DNA of 64,000 nt from Escherichia coli (GTDB lineage Bacteria > Pseudomonadota > Gammaproteobacteria > Enterobacterales > Enterobacteriaceae), in NCBI RefSeq assembly GCF_002854065.1, contig NZ_CP024147.1. One strand, given 5' to 3'. This document shows, one piece after another, positions 1,204 to 31,523 of the stretch. A model generated the notes under the pieces. It made no database searches. It was given only the letters and a program-made list of their open reading frames with translations, and was not told where the DNA came from. Position numbers and translations under genes: made by a program. Each line of letters starts with the position of its first letter. Within the stretch, counting starts at the first letter, position 1.

Positions 1204-4106
<2,903 letters not shown>

Positions 4107-4333: not shown

Positions 4334-4358
4334 GGCCATCCTGACGGATGGCCTTTTT
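4334..4358 (+). terminator. rrn operon rho-independent terminator (T1-like)
   Basis: GGCCATCC-TGAC-GGATGGCC hairpin followed by TTTTT just after the 5S gene. Confidence 0.75.
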
Positions 4359-4433
4359 GCGTTGGTGCAAAAAAATGCCGGATGCGACGCTGGCGCGTTT
4401 TATCCAGCTTACGCAGGCACGATAGGGGGCAGC

Positions 4434-4877
4434 TTATTCCCCCACATACGCCAGATTCAGCAACGGATACGGTTTCCCCAAATCGTCCACCTCAGAGCGT
4501 CCCGTAACCTTAAAACACACCTTCTTATAGAACCCAACCGCCTGCTCATTTTGCTCATTAACGTTGGTTGTCAGTTCCGGTGCCATCGAGAGCGCATGCT
4601 CCACCAGCATCCGACCCACGCCGCAGCCGCACACATCAGGATCGATAAACAGCGCATCCATATGCTGCCCACTTAACAACATAAACCCAACCGGCTGATC
4701 CCGTTCATTAACCGCGACCCACAACGGTGCTTCCGGCAGAAAGGAACGAACCAGCTCTTCCAGCTCGGCCCGATACTCTGCTGATAAAAAATCGTGGGTG
4801 GCATCGACAGATCGACACCAAATCGCAACGAGTTCCTCCCCTTCCTCATGCCGTGAGCGGCGAATACTAATAACCAT
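4434..4877 (-). CDS. yjaB: GNAT family N-acetyltransferase YjaB
   Basis: 147 aa ORF; protein recognised as YjaB; position after rrn operon and before metA. Confidence 0.9.
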   Translation of the reverse strand: MVISIRRSRHEEGEELVAIWCRSVDATHDFLSAEYRAELEELVRSFLPEAPLWVAVNERDQPVGFMLLSGQHMDALFIDPDVCGCGVGRMLVEHALSMAPELTTNVNEQNEQAVGFYKKVCFKVTGRSEVDDLGKPYPLLNLAYVGE

Positions 4878-4990
4878 TTTCTCTCCTTTTAGTCATTCTT
4901 ATATTCTAACGTAGTCTTTTCCTTGAAACTTTCTCACCTTCAACATGCAGGCTCGACATTGGCAAATTTTCTGGTTATCTTCAGCTATCT

Positions 4991-5014
4991 GGATGTCTAA
5001 ACGTATAAGCGTAT
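4991..5014 (+). promoter_or_regulatory. Probable MetJ operator (met boxes) in the metA promoter region
   Basis: GGATGTCTAAACGTATAAGCGTAT: tandem 8-bp units resembling the AGACGTCT met-box consensus, ~20 bp upstream of metA. Confidence 0.5.
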
Positions 5015-5033
5015 GTAGTGAGGTAATCAGGTT

Positions 5034-5963
5034 ATGCCGATTCGTGTGCCGGACGAGCTACCCGCCGTCAATTTCTTGCGTGAAGAAAACGTCTTTGTGA
5101 TGACAACTTCTCGTGCGTCTGGTCAGGAAATTCGTCCGCTAAAGGTGCTTATCCTTAACCTGATGCCGAAGAAGATCGAAACTGAAAATCAGTTTCTGCG
5201 CCTGCTTTCAAACTCACCTTTGCAGGTCGATATTCAGCTGTTGCGCATCGATGCCCGTGAATCGCGCAACACGCCCGCAGAGCATCTGAACAACTTCTAC
5301 TGTAACTTTGAAGATATTCAGGATCAGAACTTTGACGGTTTGATTGTAACTGGTGCGCCGCTGGGCCTGGTGGAGTTTAATGATGTCGCTTACTGGCCGC
5401 AGATCAAACAGGTGCTGGAGTGGTCGAAAGATCACGTCACCTCGACGCTGTTTGTCTGCTGGGCGGTACAGGCCGCGCTCAATATCCTCTACGGCATTCC
5501 TAAGCAAACTCGCACCGACAAACTCTCTGGCGTTTACGAGCATCATATTCTCCATCCTCATGCGCTTCTGACGCGTGGCTTTGATGATTCATTCCTGGCA
5601 CCACATTCGCGCTATGCTGACTTTCCGGCAGCGTTGATTCGTGATTATACCGATCTGGAAATTCTGGCAGAGACGGAAGAAGGGGATGCATATCTGTTTG
5701 CCAGCAAAGATAAGCGCATTGCCTTTGTGACGGGCCATCCCGAATATGATGCGCAAACGCTGGCGCAGGAATATTTCCGCGATGTGGAAGCCGGACTAAA
5801 ACCGGATGTACCGTATAACTATTTTCCGCACAACGATCCGCAAAACAAACCGCGAGCGAGCTGGCGTAGTCACGGTAATTTGCTATTTACCAACTGGCTC
5901 AACTATTACGTCTACCAGATCACGCCATACGATCTACGGCACATGAATCCAACGCTGGATTAA
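5034..5963 (+). CDS. metA: Homoserine O-succinyltransferase
   Basis: 309 aa, [23 protein letters not shown]...; recognised MetA. Confidence 0.95.
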
Positions 5964-26043: not shown

Positions 26044-26991
26044 TTATTTCAGTAATAGTTCAGCTGTGCTGCTATTCGTTACCAGACAATTAATATATTT
26101 TCCACGCAGTGCACCAATAATTCCGCTGTATTTTTCTTCACTCATGGCAATGCCAATTGAATATCGTGCCTGCTTTAATTTATTCATTTCGATAGAGAGT
26201 GTTTTTTCGCTCATATTCGTTTCAACCATTGCGCCGTGAATATCAAAAAAGCGCGAGCAAATATCGCCAGCAACCTGGCGGGCATTCAGGTCGTCACTCT
26301 CTTCACCACCATAAAACGCATGCCAGTTAGCGCCGTCGCGAATGGCCGGTGAGCCAATTCCCACCAGGGCGACATCCAGATTATCCCAGTAGGCAGAGAT
26401 GGTTTTAAAGTGCTGAGACTGCATGATCCCATTACGAATTAAGGGGTTATCCAGCAGAGCCGGAAAATCCGCGAGATGCGATTCCCCTTTCAGCTTCGCA
26501 GCCGCGCTGTAGGTTAATGTGTTTACGTGATAGCGGCTTTCGAGTTTACCGGACGGTCCGCCAATAATTGGTACGCAGATTAACTGCCGCGATTGCCCCG
26601 CCTGCGGCAAGTTTTCAACCAGTGCGCTCACCGCGCGACCCCAGGAAAAACCGACAATATCGCCAGGCTCCAGCAAGCGATCCAGCAGTTGCGCGCCGTG
26701 TAACCCCATCATCGCCAGTTGAGTCTCTTCATCCTCATCATTTCCCGACACCACCACAACGTCTTTCAGGCCAAACTTTTGCTTCAGTTGCTGCTCCAGC
26801 CAGAGATTTTCGTTGTAGTCATAGTTGATGGCGATGGTGACAATTCCCTGATCGCGGCCTCGTTTAAGCAAGCGGCTGATGGTGGTGCGGTAAATACCCA
26901 GTTCGCGCGCGATTTGCGCCTGCGTCATATCCTGTTCGTAATAGAGTTGGGCAATCTTCACAATCAAACGGATATCGTCACTGTTTTCCAT
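26044..26991 (-). CDS. sorC: SorC-family transcriptional regulator of the sorbose operon
   Basis: ORF 26044..27075; likely start MENSDDIRLIVKIAQ with AGGAGG RBS upstream; N-terminal HTH, C-terminal sugar-phosphate binding domain. Confidence 0.85.
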   Translation of the reverse strand: MENSDDIRLIVKIAQLYYEQDMTQAQIARELGIYRTTISRLLKRGRDQGIVTIAINYDYNENLWLEQQLKQKFGLKDVVVVSGNDEDEETQLAMMGLHGAQLLDRLLEPGDIVGFSWGRAVSALVENLPQAGQSRQLICVPIIGGPSGKLESRYHVNTLTYSAAAKLKGESHLADFPALLDNPLIRNGIMQSQHFKTISAYWDNLDVALVGIGSPAIRDGANWHAFYGGEESDDLNARQVAGDICSRFFDIHGAMVETNMSEKTLSIEMNKLKQARYSIGIAMSEEKYSGIIGALRGKYINCLVTNSSTAELLLK

Positions 26992-27338
26992 TGCCGCCTC
27001 CTGGTTCTGCACATTTGTGCAAATACGCTTTCTCACCGCTTGATCTGATATAACCCCATCATGATGGCCTTTCAAAGCGATTTTTCACTCTTTGCATGGG
27101 GAGAAATAGCGCTTTCTCTTGCACATTTGTTTCTCTGCGCAGTAGTCATCAGCACAGGTGTGCAGCGATTCGTAATATGTTGATTATCCTTATTTTGACA
27201 GGCAAATTTGCATTGTACTTCCGGAGACACTTTTGTGATAAAAGGCGTGGCAGATCACATTTAATTTCGACGTTGCCGCATAACCCTGTTTTTCCCCGCT
27301 AAGAGGTACGGTATATTCCGCGTTTTACAGGAGAATTT

Positions 27339-28211: not shown

Positions 28212-28484
28212 TCAGCGCCTGCCGCGCGTCGACGTATTTGCTGACCAGCTAAATGACGCTTCAGGATCCGGTTTATAAGCCTGCTTTTTCTTCAATTGGC
28301 GGGCTTTTTTTGCTTCAGCCTCACGCTCAACCATTAATTTATCGATGTAATCTTTCTTAATGCTGTTGGTTTCGGAGTTGGTCAGTACGCGACCATGCGC
28401 AATCCGCGCCCGATCCAGCAGTGTTTTAAGTTCACGCTGCTCGCGTTCAGTCATCTCTTTTTGGGTAATACGGGGGAGTGCCAT
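28212..28484 (-). CDS. yjbD: Small conserved protein YjbD
   Basis: 90 aa, MALPRITQKEMTEREQRELKTLLDRARIAHG... Confidence 0.85.
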   Translation of the reverse strand: MALPRITQKEMTEREQRELKTLLDRARIAHGRVLTNSETNSIKKDYIDKLMVEREAEAKKARQLKKKQAYKPDPEASFSWSANTSTRGRR

Positions 28485-28582
28485 GATGGTGCCCTCAGTG
28501 AGCCAGAGAGTTCAGTGTACGGGAATTCGTTTGCGAGCAGAACTGATAATATTCCTTTGTTCTCTTCGGTAATGACTCCAAC

Positions 28583-29086
28583 TTATTGATAGTGTTTTAT
28601 GTTCAGATAATGCCCGATGACTTTGTCATGCAGCTCCACCGATTTTGAGAACGACAGCGACTTCCGTCCCAGCCGTGCCAGGTGCTGCCTCAGATTCAGG
28701 TTATGCCGCTCAATTCGCTGCGTATATCGCTTGCTGATTACGTGCAGCTTTCCCTTCAGGCGGGATTCATACAGCGGCCAGCCATCCGTCATCCATATCA
28801 CCACGTCAAAGGGTGACAGCAGGCTCATAAGACGCCCCAGCGTCGCCATAGTGCGTTCACCGAATACGTGCGCAACAACCGTCTTCCGGAGCCTGTCATA
28901 CGCGTAAAACAGCCAGCGCTGGCGCGATTTAGCCCCGACGTATCCCCACTGTTCGTCCATTTCCGCGCAGACGATGACGTCACTGCCCGGCTGTATGCGC
29001 GAGGTTACCGACTGCGGCCTGAGTTTTTTAAATGGCGGAAAATCGTGTTGAGGCCAACGCCCATAATGCGGGCGGTTGCCCGGCAT
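28583..29086 (-). CDS. insB: IS1 InsB (transposase C-terminal part, expressed as InsAB' by -1 frameshift)
   Basis: 167 aa ORF matching IS1 InsB. Confidence 0.9.
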
Positions 29087-29280
29087 CCAACGCCATTCAT
29101 GGCCATATCAATGATTTTCTGGTGCGTACCGGGTTGAGAAGCGGTGTAAGTGAACTGCAGTTGCCATGTTTTACGGCAGTGAGAGCAGAGATAGCGCTGA
29201 TGTCCGGCAGTGCTTTTGCCGTTACGCACCACCCCGTCAGTAGCTGAACAGGAGGGACAGCTGATAGAAACAGAAGCCAC
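29005..29280 (-). CDS. insA: IS1 InsA (transposition repressor / transposase N-terminus)
   Basis: 91 aa, [40 protein letters not shown]... Confidence 0.9.
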
Positions 29281-29330
29281 TGGAGCACCTCAAAAACACC
29301 ATCATACACTAAATCAGTAAGTTGGCAGCA

Positions 29331-30029
29331 TCACCCGTTGGTGCTTTCCCAGCTTAATGCCGCTGAGGTGGTTTTTATCATGACTTCTGTTCGGTAGCCT
29401 GCATCTTTGAGTTTTTTTAATGTTTGTAGCGGCGTAGCGGCATTACGAAATGTTCCTTCGACAACAATATTGAGTTTATTGGCTATGGCCCTCTCTATTG
29501 CACGTTCGACCGTTTCGCCGGAAAATTTTGCCGTATGGGTAACAAAATCGTCGCCATAAGTTTGATATATATAATTAAAATCAGGGTGTAGAAATCTGAA
29601 ATCATCACCATTAATAATCATTATATTATTCTTTGTTTCCCTTTTTGCTAATTCGATTAGGGCGGATTTTCCGGCTCCTGGTTGTCCACCTAAAACAAAA
29701 CCAATGGGACTCTGCTGGGATGTGACGTCATGGTTTGTCAGACGCTGCCAAATAGAATCAAAAGACGCTTTATTTTCTGAATGCGCAGTATTATTAAATT
29801 CACGCTGATACTTTTTTCTGACCTGCTGGAGGCGTAACTTTTCCTGTGTAAAATCAACAAGTTCTGCTTGAGTGGAATAAAGATTGTCGCGATAGCTGAC
29901 TAATTGTGATAGCTCATCGTCTGAGTCCTGAACTTGTGAGGAAAAACAACTGTCGACGATATTTGATAAAAACGCGATGCACTGACTGGCGCCGTTTAAA
30001 AGTGCATCCTTTTCCATTAAAGTAGCCAT
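29331..30029 (-). CDS. Zeta-toxin-like P-loop kinase domain protein, reading frame runs into the IS1 end (probably C-terminally truncated)
   Basis: ORF 29331..30035 with likely ATG at 30029 preceded by AGGAG; Walker A GGQPGAGKS, then INGDDFR and VEGTFR motifs; AT-rich; stop codon lies inside IS1 terminal repeat. Confidence 0.55.
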   Translation of the reverse strand: MATLMEKDALLNGASQCIAFLSNIVDSCFSSQVQDSDDELSQLVSYRDNLYSTQAELVDFTQEKLRLQQVRKKYQREFNNTAHSENKASFDSIWQRLTNHDVTSQQSPIGFVLGGQPGAGKSALIELAKRETKNNIMIINGDDFRFLHPDFNYIYQTYGDDFVTHTAKFSGETVERAIERAIANKLNIVVEGTFRNAATPLQTLKKLKDAGYRTEVMIKTTSAALSWESTNG

Positions 30030-30173
30030 TAACACTCCTGTTAAATGATATTTTTCGGTGATTGTAATACTGTTCTACAGGAGTGATTTTGCTTTTCAGA
30101 TATTATTTAATCTATGTTTTCAGTGAGGATGGCGTATAACAATTGGTGAGCGTTATACGCCAGTAGGGAAATA

Positions 30174-31523
30174 TTACTCAAACAAATTAAAATGCAGCTT
30201 CTGCACCACCTGCTCGGCATCTTCGCCGGGTACCAGGAAGCACAGGTTATGGCTGGATGCGCCGTAACAAATCATGCGAATGTTGAACGGTTCCAGTACG
30301 CCGAATACCTCTTTGCCAACGCCGCAGGCTTTTGACAGGTCATTGCCAATCAACGCGACCAGCGCCAGACCTTCTTCCACCTCCACCCGGCACAGTGCGG
30401 AAAGCTCCATCAGCAGAGATTGCGTCAGCAACGTATCGCCAGTGGAGGTTGAACCGGTGGTATCAAGGGTTAATGCCACGCTCACTTCTGACGTGGTGAT
30501 TAAGTCTACCGAAATATTATGCCGCGCGAGGATGCCGAAAACTTCCGCGAGGAAACCGCGAGAATGCAGCATATTCAGGCTGTGCAAAGTGAGCAGAGTC
30601 TGATTGCGACGAAGCGCCAGCGCGCGGAACAGCGGCGGATTTTCAGTTTTATTGCACACCAGCGTACCACCTGCGCGTGGGTCTTTGCTGGAGCCGACAA
30701 AGACCGGGATATCGCTGCGTACTGCGGGTAGCAACGTTGCCGGATGCAGTACTTTTGCACCAAAAGTTGCCATCTCTGCCGCTTCGGCAAACGCGATTTC
30801 ATCAATGCGTTTTGCTGCGGAAACTACGCGTGGATCGGTGGTGTAGATGCCCGGGACGTCGGTCCAGATATCAACACGAGATGCGTGTAAAGCCTCCGCC
30901 AGCAAGGCTGCCGTATAATCGCTGCCTCCACGGCCAAGCGTCGTTGTACGACCTTTATTTTCGCTACCGATAAATCCCTGGGTGATCACTAAGCCTTCAT
31001 TGAGACGTGGGAGCAGCTGCAGCGCGGCCAGTTCCGCCAGCGCGGCTATATCTGGCTCTGCACGACCAAATCGGTCGTTGGTACGCATCACTTTACGTAC
31101 ATCAAACCACTGTGCCTGAACATCGCGTTCGCGCAGGATCTCAACAAACAGCAGGGTCGACATCAGCTCGCCGTGGCTGACCAGCTCATCTGTCAGCGCC
31201 GGAGACGTTGCCAGCGCCGCCGCTTCTGCCAGAACAGTAATGTTCTCCAGCAGACGTTCAATCTCTTCACGGATAACGTTCGGGTAACGCAGACGTTCCA
31301 GAATGGCAAACTGGATGTTGCGAATAGCGTCGAGTTTTTCGAATCGCTCGCCAGGTTCCAGTCCTTCAGCTAAAGCGACCAGCAGATTAGTGATACCAGC
31401 AGAAGCCGAGAGGACAACTAAACGCACGTTGGCATCAGAAAGCACAATATCAGCGCTGCGGTTCATGGCGTCAAAATCAGCTACGCTGGTACCGCCAAAT
31501 TTGGAGACAACAATTTCAGACAT
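30174..31523 (-). CDS. lysC: Lysine-sensitive aspartokinase III
   Basis: 449 aa, MSEIVVSKFGGTSVADFDAMNRSADIVL... Confidence 0.95.
   Translation of the reverse strand: MSEIVVSKFGGTSVADFDAMNRSADIVLSDANVRLVVLSASAGITNLLVALAEGLEPGERFEKLDAIRNIQFAILERLRYPNVIREEIERLLENITVLAEAAALATSPALTDELVSHGELMSTLLFVEILRERDVQAQWFDVRKVMRTNDRFGRAEPDIAALAELAALQLLPRLNEGLVITQGFIGSENKGRTTTLGRGGSDYTAALLAEALHASRVDIWTDVPGIYTTDPRVVSAAKRIDEIAFAEAAEMATFGAKVLHPATLLPAVRSDIPVFVGSSKDPRAGGTLVCNKTENPPLFRALALRRNQTLLTLHSLNMLHSRGFLAEVFGILARHNISVDLITTSEVSVALTLDTTGSTSTGDTLLTQSLLMELSALCRVEVEEGLALVALIGNDLSKACGVGKEVFGVLEPFNIRMICYGASSHNLCFLVPGEDAEQVVQKLHFNLFE

What the first reader, a model, noticed from the sequence alone, without database searches (positions are those of the whole stretch)
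28568..30173. IS1 plus AT-rich cargo inserted between yjbD and lysC, with no obvious target-site duplication
In the K-12 gene order I know, yjbD is followed directly by lysC. Here about 1.6 kb lies between them: a complete IS1 and an AT-rich gene that differs visibly in base composition from the flanking core genes. I could not find the 8-9 bp direct repeat that simple IS1 insertion normally makes (left flank ...GTTCTCTTC, right flank CGTTGGTGC...). That pattern fits an IS1-mediated deletion or rearrangement of a formerly larger island rather than a simple insertion.
Basis: partly seen in the sequence, partly recalled or inferred. Interest (0 to 1): 0.6.

Follow-up and report, generated by a model that had tools for sequence, protein, structure and literature searches.

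The report
IS1-truncated EzeT toxin island remnant
An intact IS1 insertion sequence sits where 2.6 kb of a common three-gene E. coli island (membrane slipin, nucleotidyltransferase, EzeT toxin-antitoxin) has been deleted, leaving a dead 5' stump of the toxin gene; this is a textbook IS-associated deletion, so the finding is real but ordinary.

Summary
A complete 768-bp IS1 lies at 28568-29335. It is followed by an AT-rich (GC 0.41) gene fragment and a spacer up to lysC, and there is no target-site duplication (…GTTCTCTTC|IS1|CGTTGGTGC…).

The AT-rich gene is not IS1 cargo. It is the first 231 of 309 codons of ezeT, the single-chain zeta toxin-antitoxin known to sit beside lysC.

The near-identical strain 100416 carries the intact island: yjbD, slipin, RlaP-type nucleotidyltransferase, ezeT, lysC. 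The slipin-nucleotidyltransferase-ezeT 3' segment occurs in about 1,624 of 5,426 complete E. coli genomes. Relative to 100416, the window lacks exactly 2,637 bp, and IS1 sits at the gap.

A second clone-mate, CUWW06, has the identical IS1 at the identical ezeT junction but has lost only 217 bp on the other side. One IS end is therefore fixed and the other variable, which is the signature of IS1-associated adjacent deletion.

Recombination between two IS1 copies cannot be excluded as the route. The stump lacks the equivalents of two arginines needed for zeta toxicity, so it is predicted to be inactive. Novelty is low.

The parts
28212..28484 (-). yjbD (DUF3811), intact core gene
   Evidence: ORF of 90 aa. 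Annotated as yjbD in identical sequence of 100416, XJ34 and CUWW06.
28485..28567 (.). 83 bp of core spacer upstream of yjbD, retained. It ends at the left deletion and IS1 junction (…GTTCTCTTC).
   Evidence: Its first 74 bp align to the K-12 spacer (73 of 74 identical), with weaker similarity after that. It corresponds to L011:2281-2363.
28568..29335 (-). Complete IS1 (IS1B type), 768 bp. IRR is at 28568-28590 and IRL at 29313-29335. insA is 29005-29280(-), insB' is 28583-29086(-), and the A6C frameshift motif is at 29023-29032(-).
   Evidence: It is 768/768 identical to the IS1 of CUWW06, P276M and ET201. PGAP annotates the CUWW06, P276M and ET201 copies as an IS1B family transposase with programmed frameshift.
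29336..30029 (-). 5' remnant of ezeT (zeta toxin family): codons 1-231 of 309 plus 1 nt. It reads through into IS1 to a stop at 29331, giving a 232-aa product.
   Evidence: 229/231 aa identical to the full-length rare allele. 88% identical to EzeT WP_000212693.1. Pfam Zeta_toxin spans residues 102-282 of the full protein. The Walker A motif GGQPGAGKS is retained. R233 and R245, the equivalents of zeta R158 and R171, are lost.
30030..30173 (.). 144-bp ezeT-lysC spacer. It lies upstream of ezeT and downstream of lysC, and is the intact right end of the island.
   Evidence: Identical to CUWW06. It is the same 144-bp gap between the zeta and lysC CDSs as in the intact loci. It shows no real similarity to the K-12 spacer.
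30174..31523 (-). lysC (aspartokinase III), intact core gene
   Evidence: ORF of 449 aa. Annotated as lysC in all compared loci.

Best explanation
The locus is a decayed copy of a resident accessory island, not an insertion of IS1 with cargo. The ancestor of this lineage carried the 3.4-kb island yjbD-[slipin (Band_7), RlaP-type nucleotidyltransferase, ezeT]-lysC, as its clone-mate 100416 still does.

Inferred step 1: an IS1 inserted into ezeT at codon 231, with its IRL end abutting CGTTGGTGC.

Shown as outcome, mechanism inferred: DNA next to the other (IRR) end of that IS1 was then deleted while the IS1 and its IRL junction stayed in place. This is the classical adjacent deletion by intramolecular IS1 transposition into a nearby target. 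It removes the original target-site duplication.

In CUWW06 the loss is 217 bp (the ezeT 3' end). In the window it is 2,637 bp: the ezeT 3' end, the nucleotidyltransferase gene, the slipin gene and about 60 bp of core spacer. The deletion ends in an AT-rich stretch upstream of yjbD that IS1 has targeted repeatedly in other strains. The window form arose either from a CUWW06-like intermediate or independently from the simple-insertion ancestor.

Consequences: the slipin and nucleotidyltransferase genes are gone. EzeT is reduced to residues 1-231. That stump keeps the cis-antitoxin domain (1-82), the Walker A lysine (K121), D142 and E191, but lacks the equivalents of zeta R158 and R171. It is therefore predicted to be catalytically dead and non-toxic. 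yjbD and lysC coding sequences are untouched.
For: - Intact reference: 100416 is identical in both flanks and holds slipin-NTase-ezeT. The window lacks L011:2364-5000, and both flanks are collinear on the same strand.
- Nested deletions: CUWW06 shares the IS1 (768/768), the right junction and identical flanks. Its left junction is at L011:4783, also without a TSD. Its retained island part is 2420/2420 identical to 100416.
- The island is resident. The ezeT 5' part is in 1,433 of 5,426 complete genomes, always chromosomal and in one copy. At least 80% of the deleted segment is in 1,624 genomes.
- The gene is EzeT: WP_000212693.1 is named as EzeT and reported next to lysC, and that protein is annotated in TUM12355 at this locus.
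- The remnant is predicted dead. Alignment to zeta 1GVN puts R158 and R171 at EzeT 233 and 245. R158A and R171A abolish toxicity and ATPase activity (PMC6356619).
- Target preference: independent simple IS1 insertions with 8-9 bp TSDs lie within about 90 bp of the left junction in G3/10, SX12, P276M and T16R.
- General precedent: missing TSDs come from adjacent deletions or IS-by-IS recombination, and adjacent deletions often start small and later extend (PMC11708052). That IS1 promotes adjacent deletions with retention of the IS is established knowledge (Reif and Saedler 1975), cited from memory.
Against: - The postulated simple-insertion ancestor (IS1 flanked by CGTTGGTGC on both sides) was not found in 5,426 complete genomes or in the metagenome scan.
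- The final structure is exactly what recombination between two directly repeated IS1 copies would also give. The IS1 chimera test was uninformative because the IS1 copies of the window, CUWW06, P276M and ET201 are all identical.
- Loss of toxin activity is inferred from alignment, not measured.
- The order of events (CUWW06-like first, or parallel) cannot be resolved.
Confidence: 0.75

Rival explanations
1. RecA-dependent homologous recombination between two directly oriented IS1 copies. One copy was in ezeT. The second inserted independently in the AT-rich spacer upstream of yjbD. Recombination deleted the interval and left one hybrid IS1 carrying one flank of each.
For: The spacer next to yjbD is a demonstrated recurrent IS1 target, with at least four distinct simple insertions in other strains. 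All of those are in the same orientation as the window's IS1, although the search favoured that orientation. IS-by-IS recombination is a recognised cause of missing TSDs. The end product is indistinguishable from the observed one.
Against: No genome with the two-IS1 intermediate, or with an IS1 at the exact GTTCTCTTC junction, was found. CUWW06 would need yet another IS1 inserted only 217 bp away in direct orientation, followed by a second recombination. Two such coincidences in one clone are less parsimonious than nested adjacent deletions from one IS end.
Confidence: 0.2
2. IS1 arrived together with the AT-rich gene as mobile cargo (a composite or IS-mobilised unit) inserted between yjbD and lysC. 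This is the reading suggested by the finding's title.
For: The AT-rich gene is adjacent to IS1, and both are absent from K-12.
Against: There is only one IS1 in the 64-kb window. The same gene sits at the same chromosomal site in 1,433 complete genomes, nearly all without IS1 and never on plasmids. The gene is cut by the IS1 at codon 231. The IS1-free clone-mate 100416 has the full gene.
Confidence: 0.01
3. A simple IS1 insertion whose 9-bp target duplication has decayed by point mutation.
For: None beyond the absence of a repeat.
Against: The flanks match positions 2,637 bp apart in an otherwise identical genome. Flank identity to clone-mates is 100%, so there has been no time for mutational decay.
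Confidence: 0.01

Closest known systems
IS1-promoted adjacent deletions (Reif and Saedler 1975, gal region; intramolecular replicative transposition)
   Same: An intact IS1 is retained. One IS-flank junction is constant among relatives. Deletions of different length start exactly at the other IS end. There is no target-site duplication. The distal endpoint lies in AT-rich DNA that IS1 favours.
   Different: It is seen here only as natural end products in genome sequences. Transposase dependence was not shown, and the undeleted insertion ancestor was not found.
EzeT of E. coli (WP_000212693.1; Rocker and Meinhart 2015), a single-polypeptide zeta-type UNAG kinase with a cis-acting N-terminal antitoxin domain
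   Same: Same chromosomal position next to lysC and the same architecture. Identity is 88% over residues 1-231. The Zeta_toxin Pfam domain, the Walker A motif, and the D67 and E116 equivalents are all present.
   Different: It is a divergent allele: about 89% nucleotide identity to the common one, with only 47 of 1,433 carrier genomes at 95% identity or more. Here it is truncated after residue 231, losing 78 residues that include the R158 and R171 equivalents.
[quoted passage not shown]
   Same: An IS is inserted first. An adjacent deletion without TSD follows, often small at first and later extended. This matches the 217-bp (CUWW06) and 2,637-bp (window) series.
   Different: The IS family is different (IS3 family versus IS1). 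Those events come from a laboratory time series with observed intermediates, whereas here there are natural isolates without the intermediate.

Membership tests
IS1 family insertion sequence | Length of about 768 bp with roughly 23-bp imperfect terminal inverted repeats (GGTGATGCTGCCAACTTACTGAT / GGTAATGACTCCAACTTATTGAT) | tested here: met
   768 bp, with both ends matching exactly.
IS1 family insertion sequence | insA and insB' reading frames joined by a -1 frameshift at an A6C motif | tested here: met
   ORFs of 91 aa and 167 aa on the minus strand. TTTAAAAAAC is at IS1 position 304. The identical sequence is annotated by PGAP as an IS1B family transposase with programmed frameshift.
IS1 family insertion sequence | 8-9 bp target-site duplication flanking a simple insertion | tested here: not met
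   GTTCTCTTC versus CGTTGGTGC. This is explained by the 2,637-bp deletion at the IRR end. It says the copy is not a simple insertion, not that it is not IS1.
IS-associated adjacent deletion | The missing DNA is contiguous in an intact relative, and the gap coincides exactly with the IS ends | tested here: met
   L011:2364-5000 is absent, and the flanks are 100% identical.
IS-associated adjacent deletion | One IS junction is fixed while the other varies among relatives (nested deletions) | tested here: met
   CUWW06 and the window share the IRL|CGTTGGTGC junction. Their IRR junctions are at L011:4783 and L011:2363 respectively.
IS-associated adjacent deletion | Depends on transposase (intramolecular transposition), not on homologous recombination between two IS copies | not testable with these tools
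   The end products are identical, and the IS1 chimera test was uninformative.
Zeta toxin / EzeT family | Zeta_toxin (PF06414) P-loop kinase domain with Walker A | tested here: met
   Full-length allele: PF06414, E = 6e-41, residues 102-282. PezT and zeta are the best PDB matches. The window copy keeps only residues 102-231 of the domain.
Zeta toxin / EzeT family | Complete set of catalytic residues (zeta K46, D67, E116, R158, R171) | tested here: not met
   K121, D142 and E191 are present. R233 and R245 lie beyond the truncation at residue 231. The window copy is a pseudogene of the family.
Zeta toxin / EzeT family | N-terminal cis-antitoxin domain (EzeT 1-82) fused to the kinase, with no separate epsilon or PezA gene | tested here: inconclusive
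   Residues 1-82 are present and homologous to EzeT, and no upstream antitoxin ORF lies between ezeT and lysC. Antitoxin activity was not testable. The literature basis is PMC4803016.
Composite transposon / IS-borne cargo | Cargo bracketed by two IS copies, or found with the IS at different genomic sites | tested here: not met
   There is a single IS1 in the window. The gene is always at the yjbD-lysC site and never on plasmids.

The most novel reading that the evidence does not exclude
The truncation may not be neutral debris. Two independent IS1 events cut ezeT within 4 bp of each other: the window lineage in the rare allele, and ET201 in the common allele with IS1 in the opposite orientation. 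Both keep residues 1 to about 231, meaning the trans-acting antitoxin domain plus a catalytically disabled P-loop core. This could reflect selection for a retained 'orphan antitoxin' or dominant-negative fragment that neutralises incoming zeta or EzeT toxins (anti-addiction), rather than a mere IS1 target hot spot.
Probability: 0.06. Interest if true: 0.45.

Novelty: already known. Interest (0 to 1): 0.15.

Why it matters
It matters little beyond annotation. It shows that the yjbD-lysC site holds a common three-gene accessory island that includes the characterised EzeT toxin-antitoxin. It also shows that IS1 erodes this island stepwise within a single clone, through intact, 217-bp-deleted and 2,637-bp-deleted forms. 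This gives a clean natural example of nested IS-adjacent deletions.

For genome annotation, the AT-rich ORF should be called an ezeT pseudogene rather than a toxin gene. The strain should be scored as lacking the slipin and nucleotidyltransferase genes. The shared IS1|ezeT junction is a convenient lineage marker, since the exact 232-aa product occurs in 126 blocks of public assemblies.

Tried and rejected
- Chimera test. I compared the window's IS1 with CUWW06's, looking for a mosaic that would betray IS1-by-IS1 recombination. Both are 768/768 identical, and also identical to the IS1 of P276M and ET201, so the test has no power.
- Search for the simple-insertion ancestor. I searched for the window's exact left junction and right junction in 5,426 complete genomes. 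The left junction was found nowhere and the right junction only in CUWW06. A metagenome scan for the predicted ancestral junction TACCGTTCGTTGGTG-N0-6-GGTAATGACTCC gave 0 hits.
- Search for other window-type loci. A metagenome scan with the exact left junction gave 0 hits.
- Classifying draft assemblies that carry the 232-aa remnant. All retrieved contigs break inside IS1, so their left junction is unknown. A look-up of the nucleotidyltransferase protein returned only long contigs with intact islands.
- Defence-system models (PADLOC) for the lost genes. There was no hit for the slipin or the nucleotidyltransferase, and only a marginal hit for zeta. NCBIfam gave only sub-threshold HflK/C similarity for the slipin and sub-threshold PezT similarity for zeta.
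- Promoter and terminator scan to judge effects on yjbD. There were fewer sites than in shuffles, and only IS1's own IRL promoter-like site, so it was uninformative.
- Rejected readings: composite transposon with cargo, and decayed TSD. See the rival explanations.

Full report
**What is in the sequence**

Between yjbD (28212-28484, minus strand) and lysC (30174-31523, minus strand) lie 1,689 bp, whereas K-12 MG1655 has a 252-bp spacer.

- A complete IS1 occupies 28568-29335 and is exactly 768 bp. Its IRR end (GGTAATGACTCC…) faces yjbD and its IRL end (…GGCAGCATCACC) faces lysC. insA and insB' are on the minus strand and the TTTAAAAAAC frameshift motif is intact.
- It is the only IS1 end in the 64-kb window.
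- The flanks are …GTTCTCTTC|IS1|CGTTGGTGC…, with no direct repeat.
- The stretch 29336-30173 has GC 0.395, against 0.50-0.54 for yjbD, rluF and lysC.

**What the AT-rich gene is**

The ORF reading leftwards from 30029 is a zeta-toxin family protein.

- The full-length allele in related strains has 309 aa, with Pfam Zeta_toxin (PF06414, E = 6e-41) over residues 102-282. PezT (2P5T) and zeta (1GVN/3Q8X) are its only PDB relatives.
- A review identifies EzeT of E. coli as WP_000212693.1 and notes that it lies next to lysine-sensitive aspartokinase 3 (PMC10532202). That accession is the protein annotated at this very site in strain TUM12355.
- The window's fragment is 88% identical to EzeT over 231 residues. 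It is 229/231 identical to a rarer allele, WP_021578196.1.
- EzeT is a single polypeptide. Residues 1-82 form an antitoxin domain that also works in trans. The remainder is a UDP-GlcNAc kinase that is toxic when the N-terminus is removed, at temperatures below 30 °C (PMC4803016; PMC4826407).

**The gene is resident, not cargo**

- The 838 bp to the right of the IS1 are found once, always on the chromosome, in 1,433 of 5,426 complete E. coli genomes. Of these, 47 match at 95% identity or more and 1,384 at about 89%.
- Intact loci (Z1322HEC0005, 100416, O145:H28 RM12581) read: yjbD, about 0.5 kb, slipin/Band_7 (375 aa), RlaP-type nucleotidyltransferase (PF10127, 263 aa), then a convergent ezeT, 144 bp, lysC.
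- At least 80% of the slipin-nucleotidyltransferase-ezeT 3' segment occurs in 1,624 of 5,426 genomes.
- Homology with the K-12 spacer extends only about 130-140 bp from yjbD. The island proper is therefore about 3.4 kb.
- Only ezeT is AT-rich (GC 0.41). The slipin gene is 0.50 and the nucleotidyltransferase gene 0.53.

**What happened here**

The closest complete genomes over 24.8 kb to the right of the locus are CUWW06 and 100416, both at 100.0% identity.

- 100416 has the intact island. It matches the window with 0 mismatches over 2,363 bp on the left and 2 mismatches over 5,965 bp on the right.
- The window's left flank ends at L011:2363 and its right flank starts at L011:5001, on the same strand. 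Exactly 2,637 bp are missing, with IS1 in their place.
- The missing DNA comprises the last 78 codons of ezeT, the nucleotidyltransferase gene, the slipin gene, the island's left end, and about 60 bp of core spacer.
- CUWW06 carries a 768/768 identical IS1 in the same orientation, with the identical IRL|CGTTGGTGC junction and identical flanks. Its IRR end abuts L011:4783, so only 217 bp are missing. It too has no target duplication.

So three members of one clone form a series: intact, a 217-bp loss, and a 2,637-bp loss. One IS1 junction is constant and the other variable. CUWW06-type cannot derive from window-type, because it retains DNA the window has lost. The window form is therefore the most derived.

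**Mechanism**

This is the classical picture of IS-promoted adjacent deletion.

- An IS1 inserts; here the site is codon 231 of ezeT (inferred).
- The element then attacks a nearby target in the same molecule.
- The DNA between one IS end and the target is lost. The IS and its other junction are retained, and the original target duplication disappears.

That IS1 does this is established knowledge (Reif and Saedler 1975), cited from memory. A recent analysis of the Lenski lines makes the same points for IS150. [quoted passage not shown]

The left endpoint lies in an AT-rich stretch that IS1 demonstrably favours. Other strains carry independent simple insertions, each with a clean duplication, within about 90 bp of it:

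- G3/10, 1368KP and ET650: CATTTTGCC
- SX12: TCTCTTTC
- P276M: GAGATGCAG
- T16R, YY76-1 and ET915: CAATTATT

**Rival mechanism**

The same end product would arise from homologous recombination between the ezeT IS1 and a second, directly oriented IS1 inserted upstream of yjbD.

I could not exclude this rival. The IS1 copies are identical, so no mosaic can be seen. Neither the two-copy intermediate nor the simple-insertion ancestor was found in complete genomes or in two metagenome scans.

It is less parsimonious, because CUWW06 would need a further IS1 only 217 bp away plus a second recombination. I put adjacent deletion at about 0.75 and recombination at about 0.2. The broader statement, that this is an IS1-associated deletion of a larger resident island, is close to certain.

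**Consequences**

- The remnant encodes residues 1-231 plus one IS1-derived residue, 232 aa in all.
- Alignment to zeta puts K46, D67 and E116 at EzeT K121, D142 and E191, all of which are retained. R158 and R171 fall at R233 and R245, just beyond the break.
- Zeta R158A and R171A are non-toxic and lack ATPase activity (PMC6356619). The remnant is therefore predicted to be a dead toxin that still carries the antitoxin domain. This is inference, not measurement.
- The lysC and yjbD coding sequences and the ezeT-lysC spacer are intact. IS1 now lies 83 bp upstream of the yjbD start codon. A consensus promoter scan gave nothing useful on whether yjbD expression is affected.

**Distribution**

- The window's exact left junction occurs in none of the 5,426 complete genomes.
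- The right junction occurs only in CUWW06.
- The exact 232-aa read-through product is recorded in 126 blocks of public assemblies: NCBI drafts, JGI and ENA metagenomes. All the contigs read break inside IS1. The IS1|ezeT junction is thus a widespread lineage marker, but the frequency of the large deletion is unknown.

**Comparison with what is known, and verdict**

IS1, EzeT and IS-adjacent deletions are all well described. PGAP already annotates the CUWW06 copy as an incomplete zeta toxin family protein next to an IS1B transposase.

One correction is needed: the AT-rich gene is a resident, IS1-truncated ezeT rather than IS1 cargo. Novelty: already known. Interest is low, at about 0.15.

The only mildly surprising point concerns ET201. 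An independent IS1, in the opposite orientation and in the other ezeT allele, truncates the gene 4 bp away and has also removed the nucleotidyltransferase gene. This is most simply an IS1 target hot spot. A selective explanation, retention of an orphan antitoxin fragment, is not excluded but is unlikely, at about 0.06.

Noticed in passing
window 28485-28567 and the equivalent K-12 spacer; loci L006, L007, L009, L018, L019, L020: The short AT-rich yjbD-lysC spacer is a recurrent IS1 target. At least 11 strains and 8 different junction types occur among 5,426 complete genomes. They include four distinct simple insertions with 8-9 bp duplications (CATTTTGCC, TCTCTTTC, GAGATGCAG, CAATTATT) within about 90 bp.
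   Followed up: partly
L008 (ET201) 2933-3700, versus window 29335/29336: An independent IS1, in the opposite orientation and in the common ezeT allele, truncates ezeT only 4 bp from the window's junction. It also lacks a TSD and the nucleotidyltransferase gene. This is either an IS1 hot spot in ezeT or convergent loss.
   Followed up: partly
L020 (ET650) 2850-3616, versus L006 (G3/10) 4350-5117: A 767-bp IS1 variant (end GGTAGTGACTCC) sits at exactly the same target duplication (CATTTTGCC) as the IS1A-type copy of G3/10. This means either two insertions at one site or gene conversion of the IS.
   Followed up: no
L019 (GN25) 2830-3597: An IS1 next to yjbD is joined on its other side to phage tail tube and sheath genes instead of lysC, with no TSD. 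This indicates a large IS1-associated rearrangement at the same site.
   Followed up: no
L001 (XJ34) 3302-3892; L004 (O145:H28 RM12581) 4765-5693; L025 and L026 4825-5706: The island also decays without IS1. XJ34 lacks the slipin 3' end and the whole nucleotidyltransferase gene. RM12581 has a frameshifted ezeT. Two other genomes have a 293-aa ezeT call.
   Followed up: no
hits H160-H164 (e.g. O157:H7 EC10, ECONIH1): About 200 genomes have slipin plus nucleotidyltransferase but a 'hypothetical protein' in place of ezeT (1,635 genomes match the deleted segment, against 1,433 matching ezeT). This is a third variant of the island with a different third gene.
   Followed up: no
L021 and L026, 1-2121: In some genomes two unannotated genes (528 aa and 279 aa, no Pfam hit) lie to the left of the slipin gene where yjbD is expected. 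This suggests a larger or rearranged form of the island.
   Followed up: no
window 28211/28212: The rluF stop and the yjbD stop abut directly in the window, as they do in 100416, XJ34 and CUWW06. K-12, G3/10 and Z1322HEC0005 have a 132-bp spacer between these convergent genes. This is probably a small repeat-element indel.
   Followed up: no
window 26044-27075 (minus strand): A SorC-type sugar-binding transcriptional regulator lies to the left of rluF, with an SDR oxidoreductase beyond it in related genomes. K-12 has pepE there. This is a second accessory block flanking the same core genes.
   Followed up: no
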